The notes beneath the pieces are model-generated. The model was not told where the DNA came from and made no database searches. It worked only from the letters and a program-made list of their open reading frames with translations. From positions 13,748 to 77,747 of the forward strand of contig JAGPUQ010000024.1 in assembly GCA_018069525.1 (NCBI GenBank): a stretch of DNA of 64,000 nucleotides. The letters run 5' to 3'. Numbering within the stretch: position 1 is the first letter of the stretch; each line of letters opens with the position of its first letter. Source of the stretch: Porticoccaceae bacterium (GTDB lineage: Bacteria; Pseudomonadota; Gammaproteobacteria; Pseudomonadales; Porticoccaceae). Shown here in pieces: positions 16,951 through 60,530 of this stretch. The position numbers and the translations under genes were made by a program.

Positions 16951-17721
16951 TTAGACCGTCAGAGTCATACCGCCATCAGCGACGATAACGGCCCCGGTAA
17001 TAAAGTCCGACGCCGGGCTGGCCAATAACACGGCCAAACCTTCAAAGTCGGCGGGCATGCCATGGCGCTTAACGGGGGTTTTGTTGACGATGTAGTCGAT
17101 GATGGCGCCACGGTGATCAGGGCCTTCACAGGGCATCATTTCAGTGTGAACCAGACCGGGACATACCACGTTGACCTGGATATTATCTTTACCCCAGCCT
17201 TGCGCTAAACTTTGGGTCATATGATCCATGCCGCCTTTAGCCGCCGCATAATGTACCAGTTTACCAAAGCCTTTTTGGGTGATTGCCGAACTGATATTAA
17301 TGATCTTGCCGCCACCGGCTTTGATCATTTCCGGATAAACTGCTTTGGAACACAAGAAGCACGAGGTGAGGTTAATATCGATAAATTGATTCCAGGTTTC
17401 CAGCGGCATGGTTTCTGTGGCCACGCCCCAGCTAATCGCCGCATTGTTGACCAGGATGTCCACGCGACCAAAATGGTCTACAGTTTCTTTCACCATCCGG
17501 TTAACGTCGTCCTCCAGGGAAACATCTGCTTGCACCGATAAGACTTCAAAGCCCTCGGCTTTGAGCTCGGCCTCGGCTTTATCGAGTTTTTCTTGTTTGC
17601 GACCGACAATGGCGACCTTGGCACCGGCCTTCGCCAGGCCGCGGGCGATACCCAACCCTAAGCCACCGTTGCCGCCGGTGATAATGGCGACTTTTCCTGT
17701 AATATCAAACATATCCAACAT
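16951..17721 (-). CDS. SDR-family oxidoreductase, array member 3
   Basis: Same motifs as the other members, 256 aa. Confidence 0.85.
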   Translation of the reverse strand: MLDMFDITGKVAIITGGNGGLGLGIARGLAKAGAKVAIVGRKQEKLDKAEAELKAEGFEVLSVQADVSLEDDVNRMVKETVDHFGRVDILVNNAAISWGVATETMPLETWNQFIDINLTSCFLCSKAVYPEMIKAGGGKIINISSAITQKGFGKLVHYAAAKGGMDHMTQSLAQGWGKDNIQVNVVCPGLVHTEMMPCEGPDHRGAIIDYIVNKTPVKRHGMPADFEGLAVLLASPASDFITGAVIVADGGMTLTV

Positions 17722-29165: not shown

Positions 29166-29200
29166 TGGTCTATGGTCTATGGTCTATGGTCTATGGTCTA
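29166..29200. repeat. Perfect heptanucleotide repeat (TGGTCTA)x5
   Basis: Read directly. It lies in the 342-bp divergent intergenic region between the hemN-like and usp genes. Confidence 0.95.
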
Positions 29201-37162: not shown

Positions 37163-37218
37163 TTTATTAGGTTTGAATTGTTAGGTTTAAATTGTAAGGT
37201 TTACATTGTAAGGATTAA
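37163..37218 (+). repeat. 14-bp x4 degenerate tandem repeat right after the ccmB stop
   Basis: tttattaggtttga / attgttaggtttaa / attgtaaggtttac / attgtaaggattaa. Confidence 0.75.
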
Positions 37219-37229: not shown

Positions 37230-38000
37230 ATGTGGCGTTGGTTTCATAGATTAGGTTCTCCCCGCTGGTTTTATCAAACCAGCGGACGGTGGTTGCCGTG
37301 GTTGGCCGTACTGACGCTGGCATTGCTGGTTATCGGCACGCTTTGGGGACTGGCTTTTGCGCCTGAAGACGCACGGCAGGGCAATAGTTTTCGTATTATT
37401 TATATTCATGTGCCGGTGTCGTTTTTGGCGCTGGCCGGATATTACGTAATGGCGGTAGCCGGAGCTGTTAATCTGATTTGGCGAATTAAATTAGCCGATA
37501 TGGTGATGACAGCTGCTGCGCCATTGGGTGCAGCCTTAACATTTTTGGCACTGTTTACCGGCGCGATCTGGGGCAAGCCCACCTGGGGCACTTACTGGGT
37601 GTGGGATGCGCGTATTACGTCTATGTTGGTGCTGCTGTTTTTGTATTTGGGCGTAGTGGTGTTGCGTAATTCATTCTCGGGGCGGGATACGGCGGGCAAG
37701 GCCTGCGCGATTCTGGCTTTGGTGGGTACCGTCAATATTCCGATTATTTATAAATCGGTGGACTGGTGGTTTACCTTGCATCAGCCCGCGACCATTAAAC
37801 TCAGCGGCGCACCGAGTATGCACCCGGATATGTTTAAGCCCCTGCTGGTCATGATCCTGGCCTATTACTGTTTTTATGCACTGGTACTGATTTTGAATAC
37901 CCGAACCGAAATTCTGCATAGAGAGCGGCGCACGGCATGGGTGAATGACTTGGCAGTGAGTGAATTGGCCGTAACTGAATTGACGAGTAACGAGCAATGA
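37230..38000 (+). CDS. ccmC: heme exporter/heme-handling protein CcmC
   Basis: Trp-rich motif WGTYWVWDARIT. Confidence 0.9.
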   Translation: MWRWFHRLGSPRWFYQTSGRWLPWLAVLTLALLVIGTLWGLAFAPEDARQGNSFRIIYIHVPVSFLALAGYYVMAVAGAVNLIWRIKLADMVMTAAAPLGAALTFLALFTGAIWGKPTWGTYWVWDARITSMLVLLFLYLGVVVLRNSFSGRDTAGKACAILALVGTVNIPIIYKSVDWWFTLHQPATIKLSGAPSMHPDMFKPLLVMILAYYCFYALVLILNTRTEILHRERRTAWVNDLAVSELAVTELTSNEQ

Positions 38001-38212
38001 ATATTCAATTTGACGGCTTTTACTTTGAGAGCCTGGCGGAATTTTTTGCCATGGGTGGTCACGCCACTTATGTGTGGGGAGCCTACGGCGTAGCCCTGGT
38101 GGTTATGGTGTGGCTGGTAGTGCGTCCGCTGCTGCGACGCGCCAGTATTTTGAATGAGCTGCGGCAGAATTTGAAAAAACGTCAACATTCACTATATGAA
38201 GAAAGCCGATAG
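37997..38212 (+). CDS. ccmD: heme exporter protein CcmD
   Basis: 71 aa with a single TM segment. It sits at the canonical position and overlaps the ccmC stop. Confidence 0.8.
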   Translation: MNIQFDGFYFESLAEFFAMGGHATYVWGAYGVALVVMVWLVVRPLLRRASILNELRQNLKKRQHSLYEESR

Positions 38213-38268
38213 CCATAGAAAGCCGAGAGCAATAGATAGCCAATAGCCACAGATAGGAACACGAGATT
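38201..38268 (+). repeat. 17-bp x4 degenerate tandem repeat spanning the ccmD stop
   Basis: gaaagccgatagccata / gaaagccgagagcaata / gatagccaatagccaca / gataggaacacgagatt. Confidence 0.7.
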
Positions 38269-43215: not shown

Positions 43216-43286
43216 AAAATATCAAATCACATCCTAAGGTCGCGCATTAACTAGCGCAAAAATATTTTAAAAGAGGCAACTATTAC

Positions 43287-44054
43287 ATGACAAACAGTGT
43301 ACGTACCGAAAGCCGTGAGGAGTACGCAGCCAAACATTCGGCAACGCAAATTGCCGATCGTCTGGAGGAGGGCCCCGGCTCCCTGTATCTAAAAGATTTT
43401 GTCTACGGCGCTATCGATGGTGCCGTAACCACCTTTGCCGTGGTCGCCGGTGTGGCCGGTGCGGGTTTGTCTCCGGGGATTATTATTATTCTTGGTTTTG
43501 CTAATTTAATCGCCGACGGTTTTAGTATGGCCGTGAGTAACTTCCTCGGTACTCGATCGGAAAACCAATTTCGCCAGCAGACCCGCAAACGGGAGATGGA
43601 TGAAATTGACAAATGGCCGGAGGGCGAACGGGAAGAAATACGACAAATTTATGCCAGCAAGGGTTTTGAGGGCGAGTTGCTGGAGCAAGTGGTGGGAGTG
43701 ATTACATCCGACAAAGAGCGTTGGGTGGATGTGATGATTCAGGAAGAGCACGGTATGTCCCTTCACGACCACGATGCTCGCGCGGCGGGACTTGCCACTT
43801 TTGTCGCTTTTATCGCGATTGGTTTGATTCCTTTGCTGCCCTACCTGTTGAACTGGATTGTGCCAGGATCAATCAATGGCCCATTTTTATGGAGTTGTGT
43901 GATGACCGGTATTGCATTCTTATGGGTGGGCGCGTTAAAGGCGCGCTTTATCAATCAGGCCTGGTTGGTCGGGGCTGTGGAAACCGTAGGTATTGGTGGT
44001 GCCGCCGCCGCTATGGCCTATGGGATTGGGGTGTTACTGAAAGGTTTGGCTTAA
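43287..44054 (+). CDS. VIT1/CCC1-family iron/manganese transporter
   Basis: YGAIDGAVTTFAVVAGVAGA...ANLIADGFSMAVSNFLG is typical of the VIT family. 255 aa. Confidence 0.75.
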   Translation: MTNSVRTESREEYAAKHSATQIADRLEEGPGSLYLKDFVYGAIDGAVTTFAVVAGVAGAGLSPGIIIILGFANLIADGFSMAVSNFLGTRSENQFRQQTRKREMDEIDKWPEGEREEIRQIYASKGFEGELLEQVVGVITSDKERWVDVMIQEEHGMSLHDHDARAAGLATFVAFIAIGLIPLLPYLLNWIVPGSINGPFLWSCVMTGIAFLWVGALKARFINQAWLVGAVETVGIGGAAAAMAYGIGVLLKGLA

Positions 44055-44090
44055 GACGCTGGTTTAAGACGCTGACTTAAGGTGCTGGCT
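44039..44090 (+). repeat. 13-bp x4 degenerate tandem repeat spanning the VIT gene stop
   Basis: gaaaggtttggct / taagacgctggtt / taagacgctgact / taaggtgctggct. Confidence 0.75.
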
Positions 44091-44160
44091 CAAAGAACAT
44101 CGCGAGGCTATTAGTTCTCACTCAGGTAAGGTATATAATCATTCGACGATCAGGTAACAG

Positions 44161-45165
44161 GTGATGTCGGAATCAGTAAAACAATGGTGGCCGGTAGATC
44201 GTCGGGAAACTGAAGGTCGGGAAGTTCAAGATCGAGCGGCGACTGATAAAAGCTGGGAGCAGACTGAACGCAGCTGGGATAAGCGAGCCGCTGAATTGGC
44301 GAATACAACAAGCTTAAGAACCTTCAGAGAAAATCCCAATCTTCCGGGGATCCGCAAGAAAACTCGAAAATACCTCAGTTGGAAAACCCTACATTATTTG
44401 CATTCCCACGACAGTAGTGGATTGTTGCGCAAATACTTTTGGCGGCACCCCTTAAAACACGGGGCCGGGTTAGCGCGGAATCTACTTCGCAGTCTACGAG
44501 GTAAGCCCACCTACATTCGCGATGACGATTTCTTTTTCTATGGTCTGAAAAATACCGAAGAGTTATGCAAAAAACTGGAAAACCCATTGACCTTGTTAGT
44601 GGTCGGCTTCTCGTACTGCCATAAACCCTTTGAATGTCCCGCCGGACGATTTACCGATGCCTGTTACCACGATCCTGCTAACGAAGTCTGTGGCCAGTGT
44701 TTTATCGGCAAGTCGGTACATTTTTTGCCTAAAGACGAGGCAAAGGAAAGAATAATCCCGCTGTTTATTACCACCGTTCATTACCTGGGCGATGAGATGG
44801 TCAAGCTGCGACAAACGCGGCCTGACTACGATCCGCTATTTTTAATTACCGCCTGCGAACTGACCCTGGAAATGTTTGGCTTTGTCGGCGCATCTGTGGG
44901 TTTTAAAGGTATTGGTGTGCGGCTCGATGGCCAAATTTGTAATACCATGCGGGCATTTGAAGCTTCTGAGGAAGGCGTTAAGCCGGGTATGGCCATTGTT
45001 ACCGACCCGACTCAGGCACGGATGATGGAAGTGTATCGGGAAATTAACTTGAGTTTGAAGCCTGAAACCATAATGGGTAATGATGAAGGCGTAGTTGGTA
45101 CTGGTCCGATAAAAAATTCTTCTTTAGCCAGAGAAGCGCTTATCGCTACGGATCGTATTTTTTAA
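44161..45165 (+). CDS. Cys-rich hypothetical protein (possibly DUF116-like)
   Basis: 334 aa. The central LLVVGFSYCHKPFECPAGRFTDACYHDPANEVCGQCFIGK resembles the DUF116 cysteine pattern as I remember it. Confidence 0.4.
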   Translation: MMSESVKQWWPVDRRETEGREVQDRAATDKSWEQTERSWDKRAAELANTTSLRTFRENPNLPGIRKKTRKYLSWKTLHYLHSHDSSGLLRKYFWRHPLKHGAGLARNLLRSLRGKPTYIRDDDFFFYGLKNTEELCKKLENPLTLLVVGFSYCHKPFECPAGRFTDACYHDPANEVCGQCFIGKSVHFLPKDEAKERIIPLFITTVHYLGDEMVKLRQTRPDYDPLFLITACELTLEMFGFVGASVGFKGIGVRLDGQICNTMRAFEASEEGVKPGMAIVTDPTQARMMEVYREINLSLKPETIMGNDEGVVGTGPIKNSSLAREALIATDRIF

Positions 45166-45226
45166 ACCCGGTAAGTGCGAAATAGAATAGAGCACAATAT
45201 TTTGATAGCCGTACGCTACGTGGTTT

Positions 45227-45757
45227 TCAATACTCCTGATCTTCTATTTCAACGACTAAATCACTAGACAAATCTTCAAGACTGCCCTGAACTTGGTCTC
45301 TGGCAAGGGTTGCAGGCAAGGTCAGGGAAGCGCGAAGATTAAATAACAGTTCCCCGGTCATGGGTGCGCTTTCACAATAGGTTTGTAGTTCTTCGACATT
45401 CACCTTTAATCTTGCTAGTCGGGCACTAATCTCTTGCACAATACCGGGTCGATCATTGCCGGTTAGCGTGAGTAGTAGAGGGGTGCCGGTGATCGGCAGA
45501 GTATCGCTGGTGGTTTCCGCATCGACTTCCGTCGTTATACGAATACCTTCCTTGGCGAGTTGTTTGAACGCGGCTTGCAATGCCGCTAGCTGGTCGTCGG
45601 CCAGGGTGATGCTCACAATCCCCGCAAACTTTCCCGCCAGCCGTGAGAGGCTGCTCTCCAGCCAATTACCCTGGTGACTAGTGATGATCTCGGCAAGGCG
45701 CTCAACAATACCGGGACGGTCGTCGGCGATAACGGTGATAACCAGATGATTTTTCAT
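45227..45757 (-). CDS. GcvR-like tandem ACT-domain protein
   Basis: Two ACT-like halves, each starting ..DRPGIV. (VIADDRPGIVERL and LTGNDRPGIVQEI). 176 aa. Confidence 0.7.
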   Translation of the reverse strand: MKNHLVITVIADDRPGIVERLAEIITSHQGNWLESSLSRLAGKFAGIVSITLADDQLAALQAAFKQLAKEGIRITTEVDAETTSDTLPITGTPLLLTLTGNDRPGIVQEISARLARLKVNVEELQTYCESAPMTGELLFNLRASLTLPATLARDQVQGSLEDLSSDLVVEIEDQEY

Positions 45758-45883
45758 GGAATATTGGCCTTATTGTTAACGCAGTATAGCTGACACAGTA
45801 TGCGCTGTGATTACAGGGCGAAACGGGGTATTTTAGTCGATCATACGCCTAGTTAACGCAGCTTACCCGGTGGTAATATTGGG

Positions 45884-45897
45884 TGACCTATAGGTCA
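45884..45897. promoter_or_regulatory. Perfect 14-bp palindrome TGACCTATAGGTCA upstream of the acyl-CoA dehydrogenase array
   Basis: Read directly, 86 nt upstream of the ATG at 45983. The decamer gttaacgcag also occurs twice in the same intergenic region. Confidence 0.35.
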
Positions 45898-45982
45898 GGA
45901 ATTGCTATTGTAAACGCTGTGCCAGCCTTCTATTGTGCAGCGCTGAGTTTTTATTTTAATAGATTATTGTCAGGGTTTTACT

Positions 45983-47146
45983 ATGGATTTTGCGTTGTTA
46001 GACGAACAGAAAATGATTTACCAGTACGGACAAAATATCGCTAAGGACTTTGACCGCAAATACTGGATGGATTGTGCCGACGCCTCTAGATTCCCCGAGG
46101 AGATGTATCAGCGGGTCGCCGACGACGGTTTTGTTGGCTTGATGGTGCCCGAGGCTTATGGCGGATCAGGTTTAGGGATGTTTGAAATGGGCTTGTTTAA
46201 CGAGGGTTTGTCGGAGCAGGGCACACCACTGCTGAGCCTGGTGATCGGTGCCACTATGTGTCTGGGTGCCATTAGTAAGCACGGTACAGAAGAGCAAAAA
46301 CAGCAGTATTTGCCGCCTTCCTGCCGGGGCGAAACACGTTTTTGCTTTGGTATTACCGAAGCCGATGCGGGTACCAATACCATTCGCATTAACACCATTG
46401 CCGCACCCCAGCCGAATGGTCGCTTCAAACTCAATGGTAGCAAAACCTATATTACCGATGCTAAAGAGTCGGACTATATGCTGCTGGTAACGCGCACGAC
46501 TCCGCACACGGAGGTAAAACGCAAAACCGAAGGCTTTACTTTGTTTATCGTCGATACCAAGGCAAAAGGTATCGAAATGCAGCCTATCGACATAAGTGTG
46601 CCAATTCCCGAAATGCAATATCAGATCTTTTTTGACGATGTGGACCTGGGACCCGAGCAGGTATTGGGTGAAGTTGATAAGGGTTTTGAGGTCTTATTCG
46701 ACTCCTTAAACCCCGAGCGTATTCTGGTGGGTTCTATCTGTGTGGGCCTGGGTCGCTACGCATTGGCAAGAGCTGTCGAGTACGCCAGCGAACGCTCGGT
46801 GTTTAAAGGGCCCATAGGAGCTTATCAGGCACTGCAACATCCTTTGGCCCGGGCTAAAACTGAAATTGAAGCGGCGTCGTTATTAACCCATAAAGCGGCG
46901 AGCTTGTTTGACCAGGGCGAGCCCTGTGGCGATGAGGCCAATATGGCGAAATTCGCCGCCTCGGAAGCCTGTGTGAACGCCGTGGATGCCGCGCTCCAGT
47001 GTTTTGGTGGCAATGGGTATACCAAGGAATATGGCATTTTTGACTTATACCCCGTCGCGCGTTTAATGAAGACAATACCGTTCAATAATGAAATGGTGTT
47101 GAATTATATCGGTGAGCGAGTGCTGGGTTTACCGCGATCTTACTAG
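45983..47146 (+). CDS. acyl-CoA dehydrogenase, array member 1
   Basis: 387 aa. ITE.DAGTN, ...KTYITDA..., and a C-terminal ..NEMVLNYIGE (catalytic Glu context). Confidence 0.85.
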   Translation: MDFALLDEQKMIYQYGQNIAKDFDRKYWMDCADASRFPEEMYQRVADDGFVGLMVPEAYGGSGLGMFEMGLFNEGLSEQGTPLLSLVIGATMCLGAISKHGTEEQKQQYLPPSCRGETRFCFGITEADAGTNTIRINTIAAPQPNGRFKLNGSKTYITDAKESDYMLLVTRTTPHTEVKRKTEGFTLFIVDTKAKGIEMQPIDISVPIPEMQYQIFFDDVDLGPEQVLGEVDKGFEVLFDSLNPERILVGSICVGLGRYALARAVEYASERSVFKGPIGAYQALQHPLARAKTEIEAASLLTHKAASLFDQGEPCGDEANMAKFAASEACVNAVDAALQCFGGNGYTKEYGIFDLYPVARLMKTIPFNNEMVLNYIGERVLGLPRSY

Positions 47147-47162
47147 CCACCGGCGCTACTAG
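47131..47162 (+). repeat. 16-bp x2 repeat spanning the ACAD-1 stop
   Basis: accgcgatcttactag / ccaccggcgctactag. Confidence 0.55.
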
Positions 47163-47213
47163 TTTTGCATTCGATTTGCTGGCTATAAACGCGAATTAAT
47201 TTGGAGGAAGAGT

Positions 47214-48377
47214 ATGGACTTTTTACTTTCTGACGAACAAAAAATGATTTACGACTATGGCGAGAGTCTGGCGAAAACCTATGACCGCGCCTACTGGATG
47301 GAACACGCCGAGCGTCGTGCTTTTCCGGTCGATATGTACAAGCAGATAGCCGCCGACGGATTTGTTGGAACCATGGTGCCGGAGCAGTACGGTGGTTCTG
47401 GTCTCGGTATGGTAGAGATGGCGCTGTTTAAAGAAGGGCTCTCCAATCAGGGTGTTCCGCTGTTGAGTTTGGTGGTGGGCGCCTGTATGTCGATGTCGGT
47501 TATTGGTAAATATGGCAGCGAAGAACAGAAACAAAACTATTTGCCCGCCGCCTGTAGCGGCGATATTCGCTTTTGTTTTGCCATTACCGAGCCGGACGCA
47601 GGAACCAATACCATTAAAGCGTCGACCATCGCAAAGCCCACCGCTGACGGTCGTTTTAAATTGACCGGACGTAAAACTTATATCACCGATGCTCTGGAAT
47701 CCGATTACGCTTTAGTGGTAACGCGCACCAAGCCACATACCGAAGTTGCGCGAAAAACCGATGGTTTTACGTTGTTTATTGTCGATACCAAATCGAAAGG
47801 TATTGAGATGCATCCGATCCCGGTAAGTATTCCCTTGCCGGAACTACAGTACCAGGTGTTTTTCGACGATGTGGATCTCGGCCCGGAAAACGTACTCGGT
47901 GAAGTCGATAAAGGTTTCGATATTCTGTTTGATTGCCTGAACCCAGAACGTATTTTGGTGGGTTCGATCAGCTGTGGTATCGGCCGCTTCGCAATGGATA
48001 AAGCCGTGGCCTATGCCAGCGAGCGCACCGTGTTTAAGGGCCCCATCGGGGCCTATCAGGCCTTGCAGCATCCACTGGCCAAAGCTAAAACTGAAATTGA
48101 GCTGGCCTCATTAATGACCCGCAAAGCCGCCTGGATGTACGATCAGAAAATGGAGTGTGGCGGTGAAGCCAGTATGGCGAAATATGCTGCTGCTGAAGCC
48201 TCTATCCACGCGGTGGATGCGTCGTTGCAATGTTTTGGGGGTAACGGTTACACCAAAGAGTATGGCATTTTTGATCTTTATCCGCTGGCGCGTTTGTTTA
48301 AAACTGCGCCGCTGAATAGCGAAATGGTATTGAATTACATCGGCGAGAAAGTACTGGGTTTACCGCGCTCCTATTAG
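47214..48377 (+). CDS. acyl-CoA dehydrogenase, array member 2
   Basis: 387 aa, collinear with member 1 without gaps. Roughly 70% identical by eye. Confidence 0.85.
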   Translation: MDFLLSDEQKMIYDYGESLAKTYDRAYWMEHAERRAFPVDMYKQIAADGFVGTMVPEQYGGSGLGMVEMALFKEGLSNQGVPLLSLVVGACMSMSVIGKYGSEEQKQNYLPAACSGDIRFCFAITEPDAGTNTIKASTIAKPTADGRFKLTGRKTYITDALESDYALVVTRTKPHTEVARKTDGFTLFIVDTKSKGIEMHPIPVSIPLPELQYQVFFDDVDLGPENVLGEVDKGFDILFDCLNPERILVGSISCGIGRFAMDKAVAYASERTVFKGPIGAYQALQHPLAKAKTEIELASLMTRKAAWMYDQKMECGGEASMAKYAAAEASIHAVDASLQCFGGNGYTKEYGIFDLYPLARLFKTAPLNSEMVLNYIGEKVLGLPRSY

Positions 48378-48437
48378 CCGGGCACTTATTAGCCGAGAAC
48401 TTATTAGCTGGGCACTGATTAAGCGCACAGTTATTAA
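48363..48437 (+). repeat. 15-bp x5 in-frame tandem repeat: the last 4 codons + stop of ACAD-2 reiterated
   Basis: ccgcgctcctatTAG / ccgggcacttatTAG / ccgagaacttatTAG / ctgggcactgatTAA / gcgcacagttatTAA. Confidence 0.9.
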
Positions 48438-48472
48438 ATTTTTGTAAAAAATATTATTACTGGAAAAAGCAC

Positions 48473-49636
48473 ATGAATTTCAATTTATCCGACGAACAAA
48501 AAATGATTTACGAGTACGGCCAAAGTCTGGCAAAAGATTTTGATCGTAAATACTGGAGCGAATGCGCCGAGCGCAAGGCCTTTCCTACCGAGATGTATCA
48601 GAAAGTCGCCGACGATGGTTTTGTCGGCATTATGGTGCCGGAAGCCTACGGTGGCTCGGGGCTGGGTATGTTCGAGATGGTGTTGTTCCAGGAAGGTTTG
48701 TCCAATATGGGTATTCCGCTGCTGAGCCTGGTGGTCGGGGCGACGATGTCCCTGTCCCCGATTGGAGATCACGGCACCGAGGAGCAAAAGCAAAAATACC
48801 TACCCGCTGGCTGTACTGGAGATCTGCGGTTTTGTTTCGCGATTACCGAACCGGATGCTGGTACCAATACCATGAAAACCTCCACCATGATTAAAGCAAC
48901 GGGTAATGGTGGCTATCGGCTCAATGGTCGAAAAACATTTATTACCGATGCCAAAGAGTCGGATTACATGTTGGTGGTGACGCGAAACAAGAGTCTCGAT
49001 GAGGTCGAGCGAAAGACCGACGGCTTCACCATTGTGATTGTTGATACCAAAGCCAAGGGTGTCGAAATGCATCCCATCGATGTCAGTATCCCAATGCCGG
49101 AATGTCAGTATCAGGTGTTTTTTGACGACGTTGAGATTGGTTCGGAAAATATTCTTGGTGAGGTCGGACGCGGTTTTGATATTTTGTTTGAATCCTTAAA
49201 CCCGGAGCGAATTATTCTCGCTGCGGTATGTACCGGTATTGGTCGCTACGCCATGGATCAAGCGGTGGCATATGCTAACGAGCGCGTGGTGTTTAAGGGC
49301 CCCATCGGGGCGTATCAAGCTTTGCAGCATCCACTGGCAAAAGGTAAAACCGAAATTGAATTGGCTTCGCTGATGACTCGCAAGGCGGCCTGGTTGTTTG
49401 ATCAAAAATTGCCTTGTGCTGCGGAAGCTAATATGGCGAAGTACGCGGGTGCGGAGGCCTCGATGCACGCCATCGACGCGTCTTTACAATGCTTTGGCGG
49501 TAACGGCTTTACCAAGGAGTACGGTATTTTTGATCTTTATCCCATGGCACGACTGTTGAAAACCGCGCCGCTGAATAGTGAAATGGTGCTGAATTATATT
49601 GGCGAGCATGTGATGGGTTTGCCGCGGTCTTACTAA
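48473..49636 (+). CDS. acyl-CoA dehydrogenase, array member 3
   Basis: 387 aa, collinear with members 1 and 2. Confidence 0.85.
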   Translation: MNFNLSDEQKMIYEYGQSLAKDFDRKYWSECAERKAFPTEMYQKVADDGFVGIMVPEAYGGSGLGMFEMVLFQEGLSNMGIPLLSLVVGATMSLSPIGDHGTEEQKQKYLPAGCTGDLRFCFAITEPDAGTNTMKTSTMIKATGNGGYRLNGRKTFITDAKESDYMLVVTRNKSLDEVERKTDGFTIVIVDTKAKGVEMHPIDVSIPMPECQYQVFFDDVEIGSENILGEVGRGFDILFESLNPERIILAAVCTGIGRYAMDQAVAYANERVVFKGPIGAYQALQHPLAKGKTEIELASLMTRKAAWLFDQKLPCAAEANMAKYAGAEASMHAIDASLQCFGGNGFTKEYGIFDLYPMARLLKTAPLNSEMVLNYIGEHVMGLPRSY

Positions 49637-49680
49637 GCGCGGTAAATTTAGCGCGGCAAATTAAATGCTGCTACTAGAGA
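49621..49680 (+). repeat. 15-bp x3-4 degenerate tandem repeat spanning the ACAD-3 stop
   Basis: gccgcggtcttacta / agcgcggtaaattta / gcgcggcaaattaaa / tgctgctactagaga. Confidence 0.65.
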
Positions 49681-49704
49681 ATGGAAACCATTAAGCGAGC
49701 GTTA

Positions 49705-51549
49705 TTAGGTCTGATGTTGAGTTGTTAGTAGTTCGGTCAATTGCTCAGCGGACAGCGCTTTGCTGAAATAGTAACCCTGCATCAGGTGACAACCGAGCTC
49801 GAGCAGGATATCCAGGTGTTCTTTAGTTTCCACGCCCTCGGCAATCGCCTCGGCGTCGTAGGCTCTGGCCAGGGTTTGTATCGCCGCAACCACGGTTTTG
49901 TCGCGATTACTTTCGGTAATGCCCTGAACAAAACTGCGGTCGATCTTGACGAAGTCGATGGGCAGCTCGCGTAGGCACGAGAGCGCGGCGCGGCCACTGC
50001 CAAAATTATCGATATTAAAGCGCACACCCAGGTTGCGGCAGGAATTCATAATGCGAGAGGCGCGCGCAGTGTCTTCGAGTGCGCCGGTTTCGCTGACCTC
50101 CAGGATAAGGCGATCCGCCGGGAAATCGGTGTGTTCGAGAAGCAGTGATTGCAGGGAGGGCAGAAAATCTTCTTCGAGGAATTCACGCGCAGAAATATTG
50201 ACGGTGACGCTTACCGATAGTTTGGCTTGCTGCCACACCAGGGTTTGCTTCATCGCGGTGCGCAATACGTGACGACCTAGTTCAAGAGTCAGGCGGGGGC
50301 CGTGACGCTCGACGGTGGTGATAAAGTCTTTGGCGTCGCGCATTGAGCCGTCGGGAAGACGCCAGCGAACCAGGGCCTCTACCGCGACAATATGATTATT
50401 TGTTACATCGACCACCGGTTGATAGTAGATGACCAGATCGTCATTTTTAAGTGCGCTGGCAACATTGGCAATCATTTCTTTACGTTGGCGCACAATGGCG
50501 GCGGTGTCGCTGTTGTACAGGCAGACCTGATTACCGCCGAACTGTTTGGCCTGGTACATGGCCAAATCCGCATTTTTCAGCATAGTGTTTGCGTCGCTTG
50601 CGTCTTCCGGATAAATAGCGATGCCGATACTTGGACTTACAGCTAGTGTGTCTTTTATCCCGGGAACTTCGATATTTAGTGCTTCGATAATACGATCGGC
50701 GGCGACCATAGGTTCATCGGGCCAGTCTTTATATTCCAGCAATACGACAAACTCATCGCCGCCGAGCCGACCAACGACGTCGCCAGTGCGCACCACGGAG
50801 TTTAAGCGCAAGGCCACGGTACATAAAAGTTCATCGCCAATAGCGTGACCAACCTGGTCGTTGACGGCCTTAAAACCATCGAGATCGATGACCATTAGCG
50901 CGATCAGGCGATCGTGGCGTTTGGCGCTGTCCAGAGCCGCTTCCAGGCGCGAGATGAAATACCCTCGGCTTGGTAATTTGGTGAGATCATCGTGATTGGC
51001 GCGATAAGTTAGGTTTTGTTCCAACTGAGTGCGTTCCAGGGCCAGGCCGATCTGAGAGGCTATGGTTTCGGTAAAGCTAATCGTGAGATCACTGGGTTGA
51101 GTAGCTTCTTTGCTAAACCAGGACAGCGTTAAGACCCCGATAGCCGTGCCGGCAACGATGATGGGAATGGCCAGATTTGAGCGCATGCCGCTTTCGATAA
51201 AGGCGTCGAGTGATTGGGGGTGGGCGGCGTAGTTAGGCACGAAAATGGACTTCTTCTGGCGTAAAGCTTGTCCGCTTATCCCCTGGCTTTTATTTAGTGT
51301 GAAATCGGTAAAGAGCTGCTGTTTTTCAGGACTCAGTCCGAGAAAGAATTTGTAGGTTAATTGTTTTTTTTCGTTCAGCGTGACCAGAGCGGCGGCATCG
51401 GCACCGACCAGGTCGGCGGCAACTTGTGCGGCTTTGCGGAAAAACTTTTCGAAATCTGTCTCTAACGACAGGGCACTAATAACCTGCCACAGAGCTTCGA
51501 CGCTTGCGGATTCTGGGCTTGTTATTGGATCAACCGCAGGCGTGGTCAT
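49705..51549 (-). CDS. GAF-GGDEF-EAL signalling protein (c-di-GMP turnover)
   Basis: RLGGDEFVVLL (GGDEF) and YYQPVVDV...AVEALVRW (EAL). The N-terminal region is GAF-like. Confidence 0.85.
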   Translation of the reverse strand: MTTPAVDPITSPESASVEALWQVISALSLETDFEKFFRKAAQVAADLVGADAAALVTLNEKKQLTYKFFLGLSPEKQQLFTDFTLNKSQGISGQALRQKKSIFVPNYAAHPQSLDAFIESGMRSNLAIPIIVAGTAIGVLTLSWFSKEATQPSDLTISFTETIASQIGLALERTQLEQNLTYRANHDDLTKLPSRGYFISRLEAALDSAKRHDRLIALMVIDLDGFKAVNDQVGHAIGDELLCTVALRLNSVVRTGDVVGRLGGDEFVVLLEYKDWPDEPMVAADRIIEALNIEVPGIKDTLAVSPSIGIAIYPEDASDANTMLKNADLAMYQAKQFGGNQVCLYNSDTAAIVRQRKEMIANVASALKNDDLVIYYQPVVDVTNNHIVAVEALVRWRLPDGSMRDAKDFITTVERHGPRLTLELGRHVLRTAMKQTLVWQQAKLSVSVTVNISAREFLEEDFLPSLQSLLLEHTDFPADRLILEVSETGALEDTARASRIMNSCRNLGVRFNIDNFGSGRAALSCLRELPIDFVKIDRSFVQGITESNRDKTVVAAIQTLARAYDAEAIAEGVETKEHLDILLELGCHLMQGYYFSKALSAEQLTELLTTQHQT

Positions 51550-51674
51550 TCGAAATAGTCATTCGGAATCAGTTAGTCAAAATCTGGAACGGCCAGTATG
51601 ACAGAACTGTAGTCAAAATATGCGACCATAGTCACACATTCACGGGCTTGCTAAGGTAAGCCGAGAGTGCGGAT

Positions 51675-52478
51675 TTAACCCTGGTCTGGGTCGACATCGC
51701 TACCTTCGTCAACATCATCTTGATTATCTTCGCTGGATTTTTGTTTTGCGCGGTACACCCAGCGACCGAAAAATACGCCGACCTCAAACAGTAACCACAT
51801 GGGTATTGCCAGCATGGCCTGGGAGATCACATCGGGTGGTGTTAGTAGCATGGCGAGAACAAAACAGCCGACGACGATATAAGGCCGTTTGTCAGTGAGG
51901 CCCCTGGGGGTGAGTACACCGGCCCAAATTAGAATGACGGTGGCAATGGGAATTTCAAAGGCGATGCCAAAGGCAAAAAATAATTTAAGTACGAAGTCCA
52001 GATAATAGGAAATGTCGGTCATCACTGCGACGCTTTCCGGGCCGACCTGGGTAAAAAACCCGAACACCGCAGGGAAAACGACGTAATAGGCAAACGCCAT
52101 TCCAGAGTAAAACAAAGCGACGCTGGAGATAAAAAGAGGCAGCACGATATGGCGTTCTTTTTGGTAAAGCCCCGGCGCCACAAAGGCCCATACTTGATAG
52201 AGAATAAACGGCATGGCTGCAAAGAGCGCCAGTATCAGGGTTAATTTAAACGGGGTCAGGAAGGGGGAGGCCACCTGAGTGGCGATCATGGTAGAGCCTT
52301 CCGGCAAGTACACTCTTAGGGGTTCGGAGACAAAAGTATAAAGCTCGTTGGCAAAGGGAAACATGCACAGGAATAACAGCGCGATCACCATCACCATACG
52401 CAGCAGGCGGTCGCGCAATTCGATCAGGTGATCGGCCAGGGCCATATTGTCGGAGGTGTTGGCGCTAGTCTCGCTCAC
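51675..52478 (-). CDS. tatC: twin-arginine translocase subunit TatC
   Basis: Polytopic protein with HLIELRDRLL near the N-terminus. It holds the canonical position after tatB. Confidence 0.9.
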   Translation of the reverse strand: MSETSANTSDNMALADHLIELRDRLLRMVMVIALLFLCMFPFANELYTFVSEPLRVYLPEGSTMIATQVASPFLTPFKLTLILALFAAMPFILYQVWAFVAPGLYQKERHIVLPLFISSVALFYSGMAFAYYVVFPAVFGFFTQVGPESVAVMTDISYYLDFVLKLFFAFGIAFEIPIATVILIWAGVLTPRGLTDKRPYIVVGCFVLAMLLTPPDVISQAMLAIPMWLLFEVGVFFGRWVYRAKQKSSEDNQDDVDEGSDVDPDQG

Positions 52479-53689: not shown

Positions 53690-54163
53690 TCAGGATGAAT
53701 ACAGCTGTTTTGGGTCTTTTAACACGGCGTCTATGGTTTGCCATTTGCCGTCTTCAAATTTCCGGTAAAAACAAGTTGCTCTACCCGTATGACAGGCGAT
53801 GCCGCCGACCTGTTCCACCTGCAGCAAAATAACATCCTGATCGCAATCGAGACGCAATTCGCGGATAAGCTGGATGTTCCCAGATTCTTCGCCTTTGCGC
53901 CATAACTTTTGGCGGGAGCGGGACCAGTACACGGCCCGCTGTTCTGCAACGCTTAGCGCCAGGGCTTCCCGGTTCATCCACGCCACCATCAATACCGTAC
54001 CGCTGCTGGCGTCCTGGGCAATGGCGGGCACCAGACCGTCGGCGTTCCAGCGCACCTCGTCAAGAAACGCGGTATCAGCGGTATCAATAGCGGGGCTTGA
54101 TGGCGCGCCAGTGGCGGGATTTGATGGGGCGCCAGTGGCGGAATTTGATGGAGAATCGGACAC
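53690..54163 (-). CDS. hisI: phosphoribosyl-AMP cyclohydrolase HisI with a repeat-derived N-terminal extension
   Basis: GLVPAIAQD...MVAWMN...[17 protein letters not shown]...[10 protein letters not shown]. The N-terminus [20 protein letters not shown] is encoded by 24-bp repeats. Confidence 0.9.
54094..54163 (-). repeat. 24-bp x~3 in-frame tandem repeat at the 5' end of hisI
   Basis: ttgatgg recurs at 54097, 54121 and 54145. The units encode PSN(S/P)ATGA. Confidence 0.8.
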
Positions 54164-54202: not shown

Positions 54203-55759
54203 TCAGTTTAGGCCGAGCAGTAACAGCGCGCCACCAGCGGCGACACCGACGGCAATGCCGAGGGAGAAAATTAGCGCAGTCTTAATGCTGAGCCCATTGG
54301 ATGACGCCCGTGCATCGGCAAGGGCTTGCAGCGACTGGTCTATATGACTGATGCGCTCTAAACCTTGAAACATCAACTGCGGGACCTGGGGGAACTGCTC
54401 TAGCCACTCCGGGCCGTGACGTTTGAGTTGCTCCAGCAAGCGAGTGGGTTTAAAGCGTTGTTTGAGCCATTTTTCGAGGAAGGGGTGAGCGGTATCCCAA
54501 AGGTTGAGGTCGGGGTAGAGCTGTCGTCCCAGCCCTTCGATATTGAGCAGTGTTTTCTGCAGCAGGACCAAAGAGGGTTGAATCTCGGTATCAAAGCGGC
54601 GGGCAACTCGAAACAAATTAATAAGCAGATGTGCCAGCGAAATATCTTTGAGAGGGCGTTGGAAAATGGGTTCGCAGACGGTGCGTATGGCACTCTCGAA
54701 CTCGTTTACGGGAGTGCCTTTGGGAACCCAGCCGGAGAGAATATGCAGCTCTGCGACTTGTCGGTAGTCGCGACGAAACACCGCGAGAAAATTGCGTGCC
54801 AGATAATACATATCTGTATCCGACAGTGTGCCCACCACGGCACAATCGATGGCGATGTAGCGAGCGTGTTCCGGCCTACTGGTATCGACAAAAATATTGC
54901 CGGGATGCATATCGGCGTGGAAAAAGTTGTGCTCGAAAACCTGGGTAAAAAAGATTTCGACGCCGCGCTCGGCGAGTACCTTAAAGTCGGTGTTGGCAGC
55001 GCGCAGGGTCTCGATGTCGGTGACCGGAGTGGCGTAGATGCGCTCCATGACCAGTACGTCGGTGTTGGTATAAGGCCAGTACACTTCCGGCACATAGAGC
55101 AGTGGCGAGTGCTCAAAGTTGCGGCGCAAAATCGCAGTGTTGGCGGCTTCTCGCTGTAGATCGAGTTCGTCGAGAATCGTGGTGCGGTAATCGCGGGCGA
55201 CTTCTATGGGCCGCAGTCGCCGGGCTTCGGCACTGTATTTTTCCAGCGTGCGGGCCAGGGCAACAAGGAGAGCACAATCTTGTTTAATGGTTTTCTGGAT
55301 ACCGGGGCGAATGGCTTTAATCACCACTTCGCGACCATCTTCAAGCGTTGCGGCATGAACCTGAGCAACCGATGCGGAGGCCAGAGGCTCGCGCTCAAAA
55401 CTGGCAAACAGAGTGTCGAGGCTCCCGCCAAGGGCGGATTCCACAATAGTCACAAATTGTGCGCTGGGAAAGGGCGGCACGTCGTCCTGCAGTTTGTTGA
55501 GCTCGATGCAAATATCCGCAGGGATTAAGTCGGGTCGGGTCGACAGTAATTGACCGAATTTGATAAATACCGGGCCGAGACGCTCGATGGCCAGACGCAG
55601 GCGAACCCCGCGAGCCTGTTTTGGTTTGGGCAGAATACGCAATAAGGCCAGGGGGTAGCGTAGCGGCCAGGGCAGCTTTAAACCCTCGGGCAGCGTATCG
55701 AGCCGGTAGCGCAGTACCACCCAGAGAATATGCAGCGAGCGCAGCAATGAGGTAATCAT
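54203..55759 (-). CDS. ubiB: ubiquinone biosynthesis regulatory kinase UbiB
   Basis: ABC1/UbiB kinase pattern ([18 protein letters not shown]..., [23 protein letters not shown]). Two C-terminal TM segments. Confidence 0.95.
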
Positions 55760-55760: not shown

Positions 55761-55814
55761 ATTTAGCGGTCATGCTGAATTTGACGCTCAGGCTGAATTT
55801 AACGCTCATACTGA
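55761..55814 (-). repeat. 18-bp x3 in-frame repeat: ubiJ stop region reiterated (three TGA codons 18 nt apart) up to the ubiB ATG
   Basis: Minus strand: tca gta TGA gcg tta aat / tca gcc TGA gcg tca aat / tca gca TGA ccg cta aat, then cATG (ubiB). Confidence 0.85.
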
Positions 55815-56528
55815 TGGCTCGCGATTGAGCAGGGGCTCTAGTTTGGCGAACACAGCGTCCAGCGGGTTTTTAGGCTTGCCACTTTTTGTTTCGACCCCCT
55901 TGGGGTGGCGCTCCTCGTCGCGGTAGTTTGCGTAACTTTCCCAAACGCGTTGGGCGCCATCATTGGACCAGGCCCTGGCGCTTTCGATACCTTGACTAAA
56001 CAGGTGGGCAGGGATGTCGCCGACCCGATCTTCAATGCGATCGGAGAGTGTGTTTTGCCAATCGATGTCGAGTTGCCGCAGGGTGCTTAAAATTTTCAGC
56101 AGGCGCGCAATATCGCCCTCGACCGTGAGGCCAGAGGGCAGCTCACCGCTGTTTCGCCAGAGCCATTGGCCGAGCGCGAGGGGTGTGCTGTGAACCTTTA
56201 TATCCGCTACAGGGTTATTTATGTCCGACGCTACAGGGCTGTTTATACCCGCCGCTACAGGGCTGTTACCCGAAATCGGTTGCAAGCTAAGTTCGCCGTG
56301 CTGCAGTGTGAGTAATATCGTGCTGATAGTTTCCGGGATAACACCGGCCAGCAGCGGTAACAGGCGAGCGGCCGTATCCGCAGCGGTTCCCCCTGTGGTC
56401 AGATTGAACACCACGGTAGCTTCGCCCAGCGCGGCGAGCTCATCCCGGCGTTTTGGATCTTCGCCAAGGGCCTCGTTGATAAGCGCAGCCGCTCTTTGAC
56501 AGGCGATGTCTTCAGCTACGCTGATCAA
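55806..56528 (-). CDS. ubiJ: ubiquinone biosynthesis accessory factor UbiJ (SCP2-like)
   Basis: It sits between ubiE and ubiB, and its N-terminal region is SCP2-like. An internal 8-aa x3 repeat ([24 protein letters not shown]) is encoded by 24-bp repeats at 56202-56273. Confidence 0.75.
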
Positions 56529-57349
56529 ACTTGTGGGCCCTTTTTACCTTGGGTGCTATTTTGAATGTCTTGTTGAGTGTCTTCTTGGGTGCTTTGTTGA
56601 ACGCCTTTGACACCCTTGTGGAGGGCGACAATGCCGCCGGTCATATTGTGGTATTGGCACTGGGAGAAACCCGCATCTTCCATCATAGTTTGCAGGGTGC
56701 CCTGATCGGGATGCATGCGGATGGATTCGGCGAGATAGCGATAGCTATCGGCATCGCCGGTGATGATTTTGCCTATTTTAGGGAGCAGGTGGAACGAATA
56801 TTGATCGTAGACTTTTTCCAGCACCGGGTTGCCCGGTTTGGAAAACTCCAGCACCAGCAGGCGGCCACCGGGTTTCAGGCACGCTTGCATGGAGCGTAGC
56901 GCGCGGGCTTTGTCGGTGACGTTGCGCAGGCCAAAGGCTATGGTGATGCAGTCGAAGGTGTTGTCGGGGAAAGGTAGCTGCTCGGCGTCGGCAAGAGAGT
57001 AAGCGATATTTCCGGTGACGCCGCGGTTGAGCATGCGATCCCGCCCGACCTTGAGCATGGATTCGTTAATGTCGGCGAGAATCACCTGGCCTTGAGGCCC
57101 GACCTTGCGAGCAAATTTGGCGGCGAGATCGCCAGTACCACCGGCGATATCGAGCACTCGATGTCCCGGTCTGACGGCAGCCATTTCCACCGTGGCCTGT
57201 TTCCAGATGCGATGCAGGCCGCCTGACATCAGGTCGTTCATAACATCGTATTTGGCCGCCACGGAGTCAAATACCTCGGCGACCCGGGAGGACTTCTGCC
57301 CGGTGGCGACTTGTTCAAAGCCGAAATGGGTGGTTTTTTCTTCGTTCAT
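56525..57349 (-). CDS. ubiE: demethylmenaquinone/ubiquinone C-methyltransferase UbiE
   Basis: THFGF...[12 protein letters not shown]...FGLRNVTD. A ~23-aa Gln/Thr-rich C-terminal extension is built of repeats ([17 protein letters not shown]). Confidence 0.95.
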
Positions 57350-59246: not shown

Positions 59247-59360
59247 CTTACATCCGGCATCCGCTGTCCACGATTGGCAATCCCTTCTACCAGTGAGTGT
59301 CAGTTATAACAGATATTTGACGGCTGTGTGACCAGAGCTGTGGCTAGTTGATGAGATAGG

Positions 59361-59435
59361 ATTGAACAGGGCTAAGTTAAACAGGGCAGGGTTAAACAGG
59401 ACTGAGTTAAACAGAGCAGAGTTAAAACAGCAGGG
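59361..59435. repeat. 15-bp x5 degenerate tandem repeat between suhB and the OlsF-like gene
   Basis: attgaacagggctaa / gttaaacagggcagg / gttaaacaggactga / gttaaacagagcaga / gttaaaacagcaggg. Confidence 0.85.
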
Positions 59436-60455: not shown

Positions 60456-60530
60456 GGGTTCCGGTTAAGGCGCTAAGCTAAAATGGCCCGGTTAAGGCGC
60501 TAGCATGGCCCGGTTAAGGCGCTAGCATGG
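60456..60530. repeat. 22-bp iterons upstream of the mini-peptide gene (two perfect copies + one degenerate)
   Basis: atggcccggttaaggcgctagc occurs at 60483-60504 and identically at 60505-60526. A degenerate copy gggttccggttaaggcgctaagc is at 60456-60478. A 6-1-6 palindrome ATGCTG-T-CAGCAT is at 60394-60406. Confidence 0.9.

What the first reader, a model, noticed from the sequence alone, without database searches (positions are those of the whole stretch)
48363..48437. Stop-codon reiteration: the last four codons plus stop of an acyl-CoA dehydrogenase gene repeated five times in frame
The sequence reads ccg cgc tcc tat TAG | ccg ggc act tat TAG | ccg aga act tat TAG | ctg ggc act gat TAA | gcg cac agt tat TAA. 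These are five consecutive 15-nt units. The first is the real C-terminus (PRSY*), and every unit ends with an in-frame stop.

The two paralogous genes have their own versions: 47131-47162 (16 nt x2, ..cttacTAG / ..gctacTAG) and 49621-49680 (15 nt x3-4).

The same architecture recurs at unrelated genes in this window (see the following findings). It therefore looks like a genome-wide process that duplicates gene termini, not a local accident. I know of no described element of this kind. Possible readings:
- slippage hot-spots at termination regions;
- relics of a mobile mini-repeat that targets stop codons;
- selected back-up stops or ribosome-release spacers.
Basis: seen in the sequence. Interest (0 to 1): 0.65.

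Follow-up and report, generated by a model that had tools for sequence, protein, structure and literature searches.

The report
Local tandem repeat spanning a stop codon
The five-fold repeated "last codons plus stop" is real, but it is one of many short, strain-variable tandem duplications that fill the non-coding spacers of this Porticoccaceae genome and survive wherever they do no harm, not a process aimed at gene ends.

Summary
**Observation: confirmed.** Window 48363-48437 holds five head-to-tail 15-nt units, each ending in an in-frame TAG or TAA. Unit 1 is the conserved C-terminus (LPRSY*) of the middle of three tandem acyl-CoA dehydrogenase genes.

**Interpretation: partly supported.** A genome-wide process exists, but it is not aimed at stop codons.
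- The window has 13 arrays (period >=10, TRF score >=50), against 0.15 in shuffles.
- Arrays cover 9% of same-strand spacers and about 6% of divergent, stop-free spacers, but 0.7% of coding DNA.
- Arrays inside genes all have periods divisible by 3 (7/7). Non-coding arrays do so at chance (4/11), and stop-spanning arrays have periods 13, 14, 15, 17 and 18.
- Placed at random within their own spacers, 2.7 arrays should span a stop; 5 do (p=0.056). In relatives the figures are 6 against 5.1.
- A sister strain (3.8% diverged) has six units here. Eight of the 13 indels between the strains are 12-18-nt unit gains or losses, against 0 of 44 in control pairs.
- The unit is not dispersed, has no Rfam match and no significant fold.

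**Best reading:** a locally born minisatellite (VNTR). Short tandem duplication and slippage create arrays, and selection removes the harmful ones. A duplication that includes the stop leaves the protein unchanged.

This is a new member of a known kind, of modest interest.

The parts
47214..48377 (+). Acyl-CoA dehydrogenase gene 2 of 3 tandem paralogues (387 aa, ends LPRSY*); its last 12 nt plus TAG form unit 1 of the array
   Evidence: ORF list; Pfam Acyl-CoA_dh_N/M/1; conserved LPRSY* terminus in about 110 homologues
48363..48377 (+). Unit 1 (CCGCGCTCCTATTAG): coding, contains the functional stop codon
48378..48437 (+). Units 2-5, non-coding degenerate copies (8-12 of 15 identical to unit 1), each with TAG/TAA in the old frame. 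The sister strain L001 has one more unit (CCGCGCTTCTATTAG) after window position 48392, between units 2 and 3.
48438..48472 (+). Rest of the 95-nt spacer (AT-rich) up to the ATG of ACAD gene 3; no promoter-like or terminator-like site, no significant fold
49622..49664 (+). Array at the stop of ACAD gene 3: gene end CGCGGTCTTACTAAG followed by CGCGGTAAATTTAG and CGCGGCAAATTAAATG (about 14-nt units). One 14-nt unit is missing in L001.
47132..47162 (+). Possible two-unit repeat at the stop of ACAD gene 1 (…CTTACTAG / …GCTACTAG); not significant on its own
44047..44090 (+). 13-nt x 3.4 array spanning the TAA of a VIT1-family gene (out of frame)
38200..38253 (+). 17-nt x 3.2 array spanning the TAG of ccmD (37997..38212); one unit absent in L001
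55761..55814 (-). 18-nt x 3 array that spans the TGA of ORF 55806..56528 and makes up the whole 46-nt spacer to the ABC1/UbiB-like gene; three in-frame TGAs
37169..37218 (+). 14-nt x 3.6 array filling the ccmB-ccmC spacer, starting 11 nt after the stop
59358..59426 (-). 15-nt (30-nt higher order) x 4 array, 39 nt downstream of a stop; not touching it
60461..60530 (.). 22-nt x 3 array in the spacer between divergent ORFs (no large-ORF stop nearby): an example of the same process away from gene ends
29166..29200 (.). Perfect TGGTCTA x 5 in a divergent spacer: a young array, no stop involved

Best explanation
The element is a locally born minisatellite (a bacterial VNTR). It is not a dispersed element and not a termination device.

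**Inferred steps.**
1. A 15-nt segment made of the last four codons plus the TAG of the ACAD gene was duplicated in tandem, by replication slippage or a short template switch.
2. Once two copies existed, the array gained and lost units by slipped-strand mispairing, sometimes in two-unit blocks.
3. The non-coding copies then drifted by point mutation to about 55-85% identity.

**Why it persists here.** The first copy keeps the intact C-terminus and the stop, so the protein is unchanged and the event is nearly neutral. The in-frame stops in later units follow automatically from a 15-nt period that contains the stop.

**The wider pattern.** The same mutational process acts all over this genome at an unusually high rate. 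Selection then filters the results:
- inside genes, only in-frame arrays in tolerant regions survive;
- arrays are depleted over the RBS and start codon;
- elsewhere in spacers, and over 3' ends, all periods survive.

Spacers here are mostly 50-200 nt, so many surviving arrays touch or lie next to a stop.

**Shown:** repeat structure, strain polymorphism, period statistics, positional distribution, locality of the unit, lack of structure.
**Inferred:** the slippage mechanism and neutrality.
For: 1. **Strain polymorphism.** The same array has 6 units in the sister strain L001, with otherwise near-identical flanks. Of the 13 indels between the window and L001 (3.76% substitutions over 21 kb), 8 are 12-18 nt unit-sized indels lying in tandemly repeated sequence. 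Three are at stops (periods 17, 15, 14), four are in CDS (15, 12, 18, 18, all in frame) and one is in a spacer. Four control pairs of 2.3-4.1% divergence have 0 of 44 such indels (Fisher p=8e-7).
2. **Density.** There are 2.0 arrays per 10 kb (period >=10, score >=50). Controls have 0.33, and shuffles 0.15 per whole window.
3. **Selection filter.** CDS arrays have periods divisible by 3 in 7/7 cases (30/38 in relatives). Non-coding and boundary arrays do so in 4/11 and 13/33, which is chance. Coverage is 0.7% in coding DNA, 9% in same-strand spacers and 5.8% in both divergent and convergent spacers. The RBS and start are depleted.
4. **No stop targeting.**
5. **Local unit.** There are no other copies beyond chance (6 matches including the 3 in the array, against 1.85 expected). 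Every array has a different unit.
6. **No RNA family, fold or signal.** No Rfam hit at E<=1, folding z=-0.37, and no promoter-like or terminator-like site in the spacer.
7. **Neutral-like divergence.** Substitution divergence in intergenic arrays is 5.9%, against 4.7% in other intergenic DNA and 8.1% at third codon positions. Unit-to-unit divergence is about 20%, which implies birth a few-fold earlier than the strain split. That fits the absence of the array at the orthologous site in the next relatives.
8. **Published background.** Tandem repeats are enriched just downstream of stops and upstream of starts across about 5,400 prokaryotic genomes (PMC12418385).
Against: - An unconditional uniform null over all non-coding DNA expects only 1.0 of 11 arrays to span a stop, and 5 do (p=0.002). 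The conditional test is borderline in the window (p=0.056). A modest stop-proximal bias is therefore not excluded.
- ACAD-type termini show terminal duplication slightly more often than other genes: 4/112 against 4/476 at >=10/12. These termini are not independent of each other.
- Within the array, the stop-containing half (TATTAG) varies less than the 5' half: 3/36 against 14/54 changes (p=0.053). Pure neutral drift does not predict this.
- The cause of the high duplication rate and of the narrow size class (12-24 nt) is unknown.
- The sample is 64 kb plus 21 kb of one species pair, not a whole genome.
Confidence: 0.75

Rival explanations
1. Termination-linked mutational hot spot. Something about the ends of translated or transcribed units, such as stalled complexes or replication-transcription conflicts at gene ends, raises the rate of short tandem duplication at stop codons. 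Gene termini would then be duplicated preferentially.
For: - The unconditional placement test gives 5 observed against 1.03 expected (p=0.002).
- The conditional test in the window is borderline at 5 against 2.7 (p=0.056).
- Independent terminal duplications occur at several ACAD paralogues and orthologues: L021 (two paralogue termini, 1476 and 5209) and L028 reach >=10/12, while L023/L025 and L024 are seen only by eye.
- Even control genomes show slightly raised TR coverage at stops.
Against: - Relatives show 6 against 5.1 expected (p=0.39).
- Terminal 15-mers are duplicated no more often than generic intergenic 15-mers: 3.3% against 4.8%.
- Arrays are nearly as dense in divergent spacers without stops.
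- 4 of the 8 unit-sized strain indels are inside genes, far from stops.
- The terminal-12-mer statistic is the same in Porticoccaceae and controls.
Confidence: 0.13
2. Selected function. The reiterated units would serve as back-up stop codons, as ribosome-release or decoupling spacers between cistrons, or as binding sites for an RNA-binding regulator, and would be kept by selection.
For: - All 5 units (6 in L001) keep an in-frame stop.
- The stop-containing half of the unit is less variable (p=0.053).
- The 18-nt array at 55761-55814 also keeps three in-frame TGAs.
- Arrays sit inside operons, where spacing could tune coupling.
Against: - Stop-spanning arrays have periods 13, 14, 15, 17 and 18, so only 2 of 5 are in frame.
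- Copy number differs between near-identical strains.
- Orthologous spacers in related genera lack the array or carry unrelated ones.
- There is no shared motif between arrays.
- There is no stable structure.
- Substitution rate in arrays matches other intergenic DNA.
Confidence: 0.07
3. Relic of a dispersed mobile mini-repeat (REP, MITE or MIRU-like) that inserts at stop codons.
For: Only the superficial recurrence of arrays at several gene ends.
Against: - The unit has no further copies in 64 kb beyond chance.
- Every array's unit is derived from its own flanking sequence, including the gene's own last codons.
- There are no inverted repeats or palindromic structure and no Rfam family.
- No ORF bridges stop and start, as it would in MIRUs.
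Confidence: 0.02
4. Assembly artefact or chance similarity.
For: The sequence comes from an uncultured-organism assembly.
Against: - An independent assembly (L001, 3.8% diverged) has the same array with one more unit, and the same neighbouring arrays.
- The TRF score lies far outside the shuffles.
Confidence: 0.01

Closest known systems
Bacterial VNTRs / minisatellites (the loci used for MLVA typing), and the general enrichment of tandem repeats in prokaryotic intergenic space (Cho et al., NAR 2025, PMC12418385)
   Same: Head-to-tail units of 10-25 nt. The units are locally derived. Copy number varies between close strains. Arrays are enriched just downstream of stops and upstream of starts and rare in CDS unless in frame.
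   Different: Density is unusually high in this species: about 9% of operon spacers, 6-fold above controls at TRF score >=50 and about 70-fold at score >=70. Unit-sized indels dominate the indel spectrum. The array includes the gene's own last codons and stop, which gives a striking string of in-frame stops.
MIRUs of mycobacteria (intercistronic repeats coupled to flanking genes; summarised in PMC12548453)
   Same: Tandemly repeated, variable-number units that sit between cistrons of an operon and touch the stop or start codons of the flanking genes.
   Different: MIRUs are a dispersed family with a consensus of about 40-100 bp, and they carry a short ORF that is translationally coupled. Here each array has a unique 13-18-nt unit copied from the local sequence, with no bridging ORF; in the ACAD2 array every unit ends in a stop.
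TAACTGA heptamer direct repeats of Beggiatoaceae and cyanobacteria (PMC4679880), and cyanobacterial STRR repeats (from my own knowledge)
   Same: Abundant short direct repeats in intergenic DNA of particular lineages. They contain stop triplets and lie near gene boundaries.
   Different: Those repeats share one heptamer genome-wide and lie mostly just upstream of starts. Here there is no shared unit, and periods are mostly 12-24 nt.
Tandem (back-up) in-frame stop codons
   Same: Additional in-frame stops lie shortly after the real stop.
   Different: Back-up stops are single codons kept by selection in frame. Here the stops come passively with duplicated units, and most comparable arrays in the genome are out of frame.

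Membership tests
Bacterial VNTR / minisatellite (locally derived tandem array) | Contiguous head-to-tail copies of one unit, beyond chance | tested here: met
   TRF period 15, 3.3-4.3 copies, score 72-74. Shuffles almost never reach score 60.
Bacterial VNTR / minisatellite (locally derived tandem array) | Copy number varies between closely related strains | tested here: met
   5 units in the window against 6 in L001. The ccmD and ACAD3 arrays also differ by exactly one unit.
Bacterial VNTR / minisatellite (locally derived tandem array) | Unit is local, not a dispersed family | tested here: met
   No copies elsewhere beyond chance. Unit 1 is the gene's own terminus.
Bacterial VNTR / minisatellite (locally derived tandem array) | Arises and changes by replication slippage | not testable with these tools
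   Inferred from unit-sized indels and higher-order (30-nt) periodicity. Direct proof needs mutation-accumulation or in vitro data.
REP / MITE dispersed repeats | Many dispersed copies sharing a consensus | tested here: not met
   only the array itself plus 3 three-mismatch hits, against 1.85 expected by chance.
REP / MITE dispersed repeats | Palindromic or inverted-repeat structure | tested here: not met
   Fold z-score -0.37.
MIRU-like intercistronic elements | Shared consensus, and an internal ORF coupled to the flanking stop and start | tested here: not met
   Every unit ends in a stop in the upstream frame. There is no common unit among arrays.
Selected tandem back-up stop codons | Extra stops kept in frame with the upstream gene across loci | tested here: not met
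   Stop-spanning arrays have periods 13, 14, 15, 17 and 18. Non-coding arrays are divisible by 3 in 4/11 and 13/33 cases, which is chance.
Intrinsic terminator / known RNA element | GC-rich hairpin plus U tract, or a match to an Rfam family | tested here: not met
   No terminator-like site in the spacer. No Rfam hit at E<=1 in 43000-52000.

The most novel reading that the evidence does not exclude
This Porticoccaceae species (and, more weakly, its family) may carry a lineage-specific, hyperactive process that makes tandem duplications in a narrow size class of 12-24 nt. The cause could be an unusual replication or repair configuration. Such a process would build about a tenth of the spacer DNA, dominate the indel spectrum between strains and lengthen intercistronic spacers. 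It might also have a real, roughly 2-fold preference for the first nucleotides around stop codons.
Probability: 0.35. Interest if true: 0.45.

Novelty: new member of a known kind. Interest (0 to 1): 0.28.

Why it matters
For annotation, it shows that strings of reiterated stops at gene ends in this lineage are by-products of short tandem duplication. They should not be read as a new element or a termination device.

For genome evolution, it gives a clean natural example of mutation plus selective filtering. All in-gene arrays are in frame, spacer arrays have any period, and duplications that include the stop are tolerated.

It also flags a species in which 12-18-nt unit gain and loss is the main indel class between strains. 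That could be useful for strain typing of an uncultured marine or groundwater group, and as a lead to an unusual slippage or repair background.

Tried and rejected
- **Dispersed-repeat hypothesis.** I searched the unit with up to 3 mismatches in the window and found nothing beyond chance.
- **Known RNA families.** Rfam at E<=1 over 43000-52000 gave no hit.
- **Structure and signals.** The RNA fold of the spacer has z=-0.37. The promoter and terminator scan found nothing in the spacers.
- **Back-up stop hypothesis.** The period-mod-3 statistics reject it.
- **'Termini are specially duplicated'.** An ungapped test of terminal 15-mers and 12-mers against interior and intergenic positions and against control genomes showed no excess.
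- **Error-prone copying to explain diverged units.** This is not needed. Array substitution divergence between strains is ordinary, and unit divergence fits an age a few-fold greater than the strain split.
- **Uniform null over all non-coding DNA.** It gave p=0.002. I judged it too lax because it counts long regulatory or unannotated regions, so I replaced it with a within-spacer null.
- **Literature.** There are no papers on tandem repeats in Porticoccaceae. One search failed on syntax.
- **Gene calls.** They were a simple longest-ORF heuristic (>=90 aa), not a gene finder. ccmD had to be added by hand.

Full report
**1. The observation**

Window 48363-48437 reads CCGCGCTCCTATTAG / CCGGGCACTTATTAG / CCGAGAACTTATTAG / CTGGGCACTGATTAA / GCGCACAGTTATTAA. 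These are five contiguous 15-nt units. Each ends in TAG or TAA in the frame of ORF 47214..48377.

- Tandem Repeats Finder reports the array at 48372-48436 with period 15 (score 72) and with a higher-order period of 30 (score 74).
- The ORF is one of three tandem 387-aa acyl-CoA dehydrogenase genes: 45983..47146, 47214..48377 and 48473..49636. All three have the three ACAD Pfam domains.
- Its ending, LPRSY*, is shared by about 110 homologous genes in related loci. The first TAG is therefore the genuine stop, and units 2-5 are non-coding.
- In 20 codon-block shuffles of the window, arrays of score >=60 appear 0.05 times per 64 kb. Twelve are observed.

- ACAD3 has a real 14-nt x 1.9 array that starts at the last base of its stop.
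- The ACAD1 pair (8/12 matches at offset 16) is at a level that 12.7% of gene ends in the pooled Porticoccaceae loci (window included) reach by chance.

**2. Where the sequence comes from, and what relatives show**

A scan of one genome per species found the locus at 99% protein identity in a Porticoccaceae MAG (L001, JBALVX010000001.1). About 37 further Porticoccaceae or Cellvibrionales loci match at 73-85%. The remaining hits are Bradyrhizobium, Afipia and Xanthobacteraceae loci, which I used as controls.

- At the same position L001 has six units. The extra one is CCGCGCTTCTATTAG, between units 2 and 3, and the flanks are almost identical.
- More distant relatives do not share the array. 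Several have their own, different, degenerate duplication after the orthologous or paralogous stop.
- The clearest example is L021: cctcgttcatacTAG cctcgttcatacTAG gctcgatcatatTAA.

**3. It is one of many arrays, and they are not tied to stops**

The window has 13 arrays with period >=10 and TRF score >=50, or 2.0 per 10 kb.

| Set | Arrays per 10 kb, score >=50 | Arrays per 10 kb, score >=70 |
|---|---|---|
| Window | 2.0 | 1.4 |
| Other Porticoccaceae | 0.86 | 0.2 |
| Controls | 0.33 | 0.02 |

By location, arrays cover the following fractions of the window:
- 0.7% of coding DNA;
- 9.0% of same-strand spacers;
- 5.8% of divergent spacers, which contain no stop;
- 5.8% of convergent spacers.

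A profile around gene boundaries in the window plus L001 gives these coverages:
- 6.5% at the stop codon;
- 8-10% at +3..+60;
- 8-10% at -100..-31 of starts;
- 4% at -15..-1 of starts, falling to 2.4% at the start codon;
- about 0-0.7% deep in genes.

Other tests point the same way.
- **Period.** Every array inside a gene has a period divisible by three: 7/7 in the window and 30/38 in relatives. Non-coding and boundary arrays do so at the chance rate (4/11 and 13/33).
- **Stop-spanning arrays.** The five in the window have periods 13 (VIT1-family gene), 15 (ACAD2), 14 (ACAD3), 17 (ccmD) and 18 (ORF 55806..56528). In-frame reiteration of the stop is a property of this array's period, not of the class.
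- **Terminal 15-mers.** The 15-mer that ends at a stop has a near copy (>=11/15) 10-24 nt downstream in 3.3% of window genes. The figure is 4.8% for intergenic 15-mers in general and 0.8% for gene-interior 15-mers.
- **Terminal 12-mers.** The analogous statistic is no higher in Porticoccaceae than in controls.

**4. Placement tests**

- If arrays are dropped uniformly over all non-coding DNA, allowing one unit of overlap into 3' ends, only 1.03 of 11 should span a stop. Five do (p=0.002). That null includes long regions that probably hold promoters or uncalled genes.
- Conditioning each array on its own spacer gives 2.7 expected against 5 observed in the window (p=0.056). In the other Porticoccaceae loci it gives 5.1 against 6 (p=0.39).

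I conclude that there is no demonstrable targeting of stops. A bias of up to about two-fold cannot be excluded with this sample.

**5. The arrays are dynamic**

The window and L001 differ by 3.76% substitutions over 21 kb and by 13 internal indels. Eight of these are 12-18 nt long and lie in tandemly repeated sequence, each the size of one unit:
- three at stops (ccmD 17 nt, ACAD2 15 nt, ACAD3 14 nt);
- four inside genes (15, 12, 18 and 18 nt, all in frame);
- one in a spacer or small ORF (12 nt).

Four control pairs of 2.3-4.1% divergence have 44 indels. All but three are 1-4 nt long (the others are 6, 8 and 8 nt, plus one of 58 nt outside the class), and none is 12-18 nt (Fisher p=8e-7).

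Substitution divergence between the strains is as follows:
- 5.9% in intergenic arrays;
- 4.7% in other intergenic DNA;
- 8.1% at third codon positions.

The arrays are therefore neither conserved nor hypermutable. Units differ from each other by about 20%. That fits faithful duplication a few-fold earlier than the strain split followed by drift, and it fits the absence of the array in the next relatives.

**6. What it is not**

- The unit has no other copies in the window beyond chance, and each array has its own unit. This excludes a REP, MITE or MIRU-like family.
- There is no Rfam match at E<=1.
- The spacer RNA does not fold better than shuffles (z=-0.37).
- There is no promoter-like or terminator-like site in the ACAD spacers.

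**7. Most likely mechanism**

The following is inferred.
1. A short tandem duplication, by slippage or template switching, copied the last 12 nt plus the TAG of the ACAD gene.
2. The upstream copy retains the full C-terminus and the stop, so the protein is unchanged and the event is effectively neutral.
3. The array then expanded and contracted by slipped-strand mispairing and decayed by point mutation.

The same process operates throughout this genome at an unusually high rate. Purifying selection removes frameshifting arrays in genes and arrays over ribosome-binding sites and starts. What remains is what we see: in-frame arrays in tolerant coding segments, and arrays of any period in spacers and across stops. 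Spacers are mostly 50-200 nt, so many arrays touch or lie next to a stop.

This matches the published finding that tandem repeats are enriched just outside start and stop codons in prokaryotic genomes (PMC12418385).

**8. Loose ends**

- Within the array, the stop-bearing half of the unit (TATTAG) varies less than the other half: 3/36 against 14/54 changes (p=0.053).
- ACAD termini show terminal duplication slightly more often than other genes: 4/112 against 4/476, and these are not independent.
- The narrow size class of the duplications (12-24 nt), and the reason this species is so rich in them, are unexplained.
- These points keep a modest probability for a termination-linked bias or a lineage-specific duplication mechanism.

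**9. Verdict**

Its specific claim is not supported, because there is no detectable targeting of gene termini, no new element and no selected back-up stops.

The array is a new member of a known kind, bacterial VNTRs in intergenic DNA, in a lineage with notably high density. Interest is modest.

Noticed in passing
window 45983-49636; L013 10001-18641; L021 313-8958: Porticoccaceae carry long head-to-tail runs of ACAD paralogues, all about 387 aa and ending LPRSY*. There are 3 in the window and up to 7 in a row in L013 and L021, which suggests a large expansion of one acyl-CoA dehydrogenase family in one operon-like block.
   Followed up: partly
window 55760-55805 (minus strand): The entire 46-nt spacer between ORF 55806..56528 and the ABC1/UbiB-like gene (54203..55759) is made of an 18-nt x 3 array with three in-frame TGAs. 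It runs straight into the ATG and has no obvious Shine-Dalgarno sequence.
   Followed up: partly
window 29166-29200: A perfect TGGTCTA x 5 heptamer array lies in the spacer between divergent ORFs (29048 minus start, 29391 plus start). It could be a young VNTR or a regulator-binding or phase-variable site.
   Followed up: no
window 60461-60530: A 22-nt x 3 array (CCGGTTAAGGCGCTAGCATGGC, two copies perfect) lies in an 820-nt region between divergent genes, with only weak ORF candidates nearby.
   Followed up: partly
window 37997-38060 (ccmD) and 37941-37982 (ccmC 3' end); L001 about 775-830: The ccm operon (35610-43215) carries in-frame 15-nt repeats in the C-terminus of ccmC. It also has a strain-variable 15-nt repeat (QFGNF/QFDSF/QFESL) at the N-terminus of CcmD. 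ccmF has a 12-nt in-frame repeat near its end that differs between strains (window 40831).
   Followed up: partly
window 54090-54151 and 56204-56267: Two 24-nt x 2.6-2.7 in-frame repeats (8-aa units) lie inside ORFs 53690..54163 and 55806..56528. They have the highest TRF scores in coding DNA here.
   Followed up: no
window 53020-53110 (minus strand): A 12-nt x 3.4 repeat (GCTTTCTTCAGC) lies in a possible tiny acidic ORF ([24 protein letters not shown]). One unit is missing in L001. The 700-nt region 52979-53689 has no large ORF.
   Followed up: no
window 57443-57493: A 51-nt segment is present in the window but absent in L001, in the spacer upstream of ORF 56525..57349. It is flanked by the direct repeat TGAGTG.
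   Followed up: no
window 16845-16880: A strong GC-rich hairpin (GTCGCCACTACC...GGTAGTGGCGAT) followed by T-rich sequence lies between the stop of ORF 16951..17721 (minus) and the 16-nt array 16791-16837. It is a likely intrinsic terminator, with the array lying beyond it.
   Followed up: no
L019 11169-11227; L014 8597-8656; L019 15186-15231: Other Porticoccaceae have their own high-scoring spacer arrays: 20-nt x 3 directly after an ACAD stop in L019, and 14-nt arrays with TRF scores of 92-106. The tendency is family-wide but weaker than in the window's species.
   Followed up: partly
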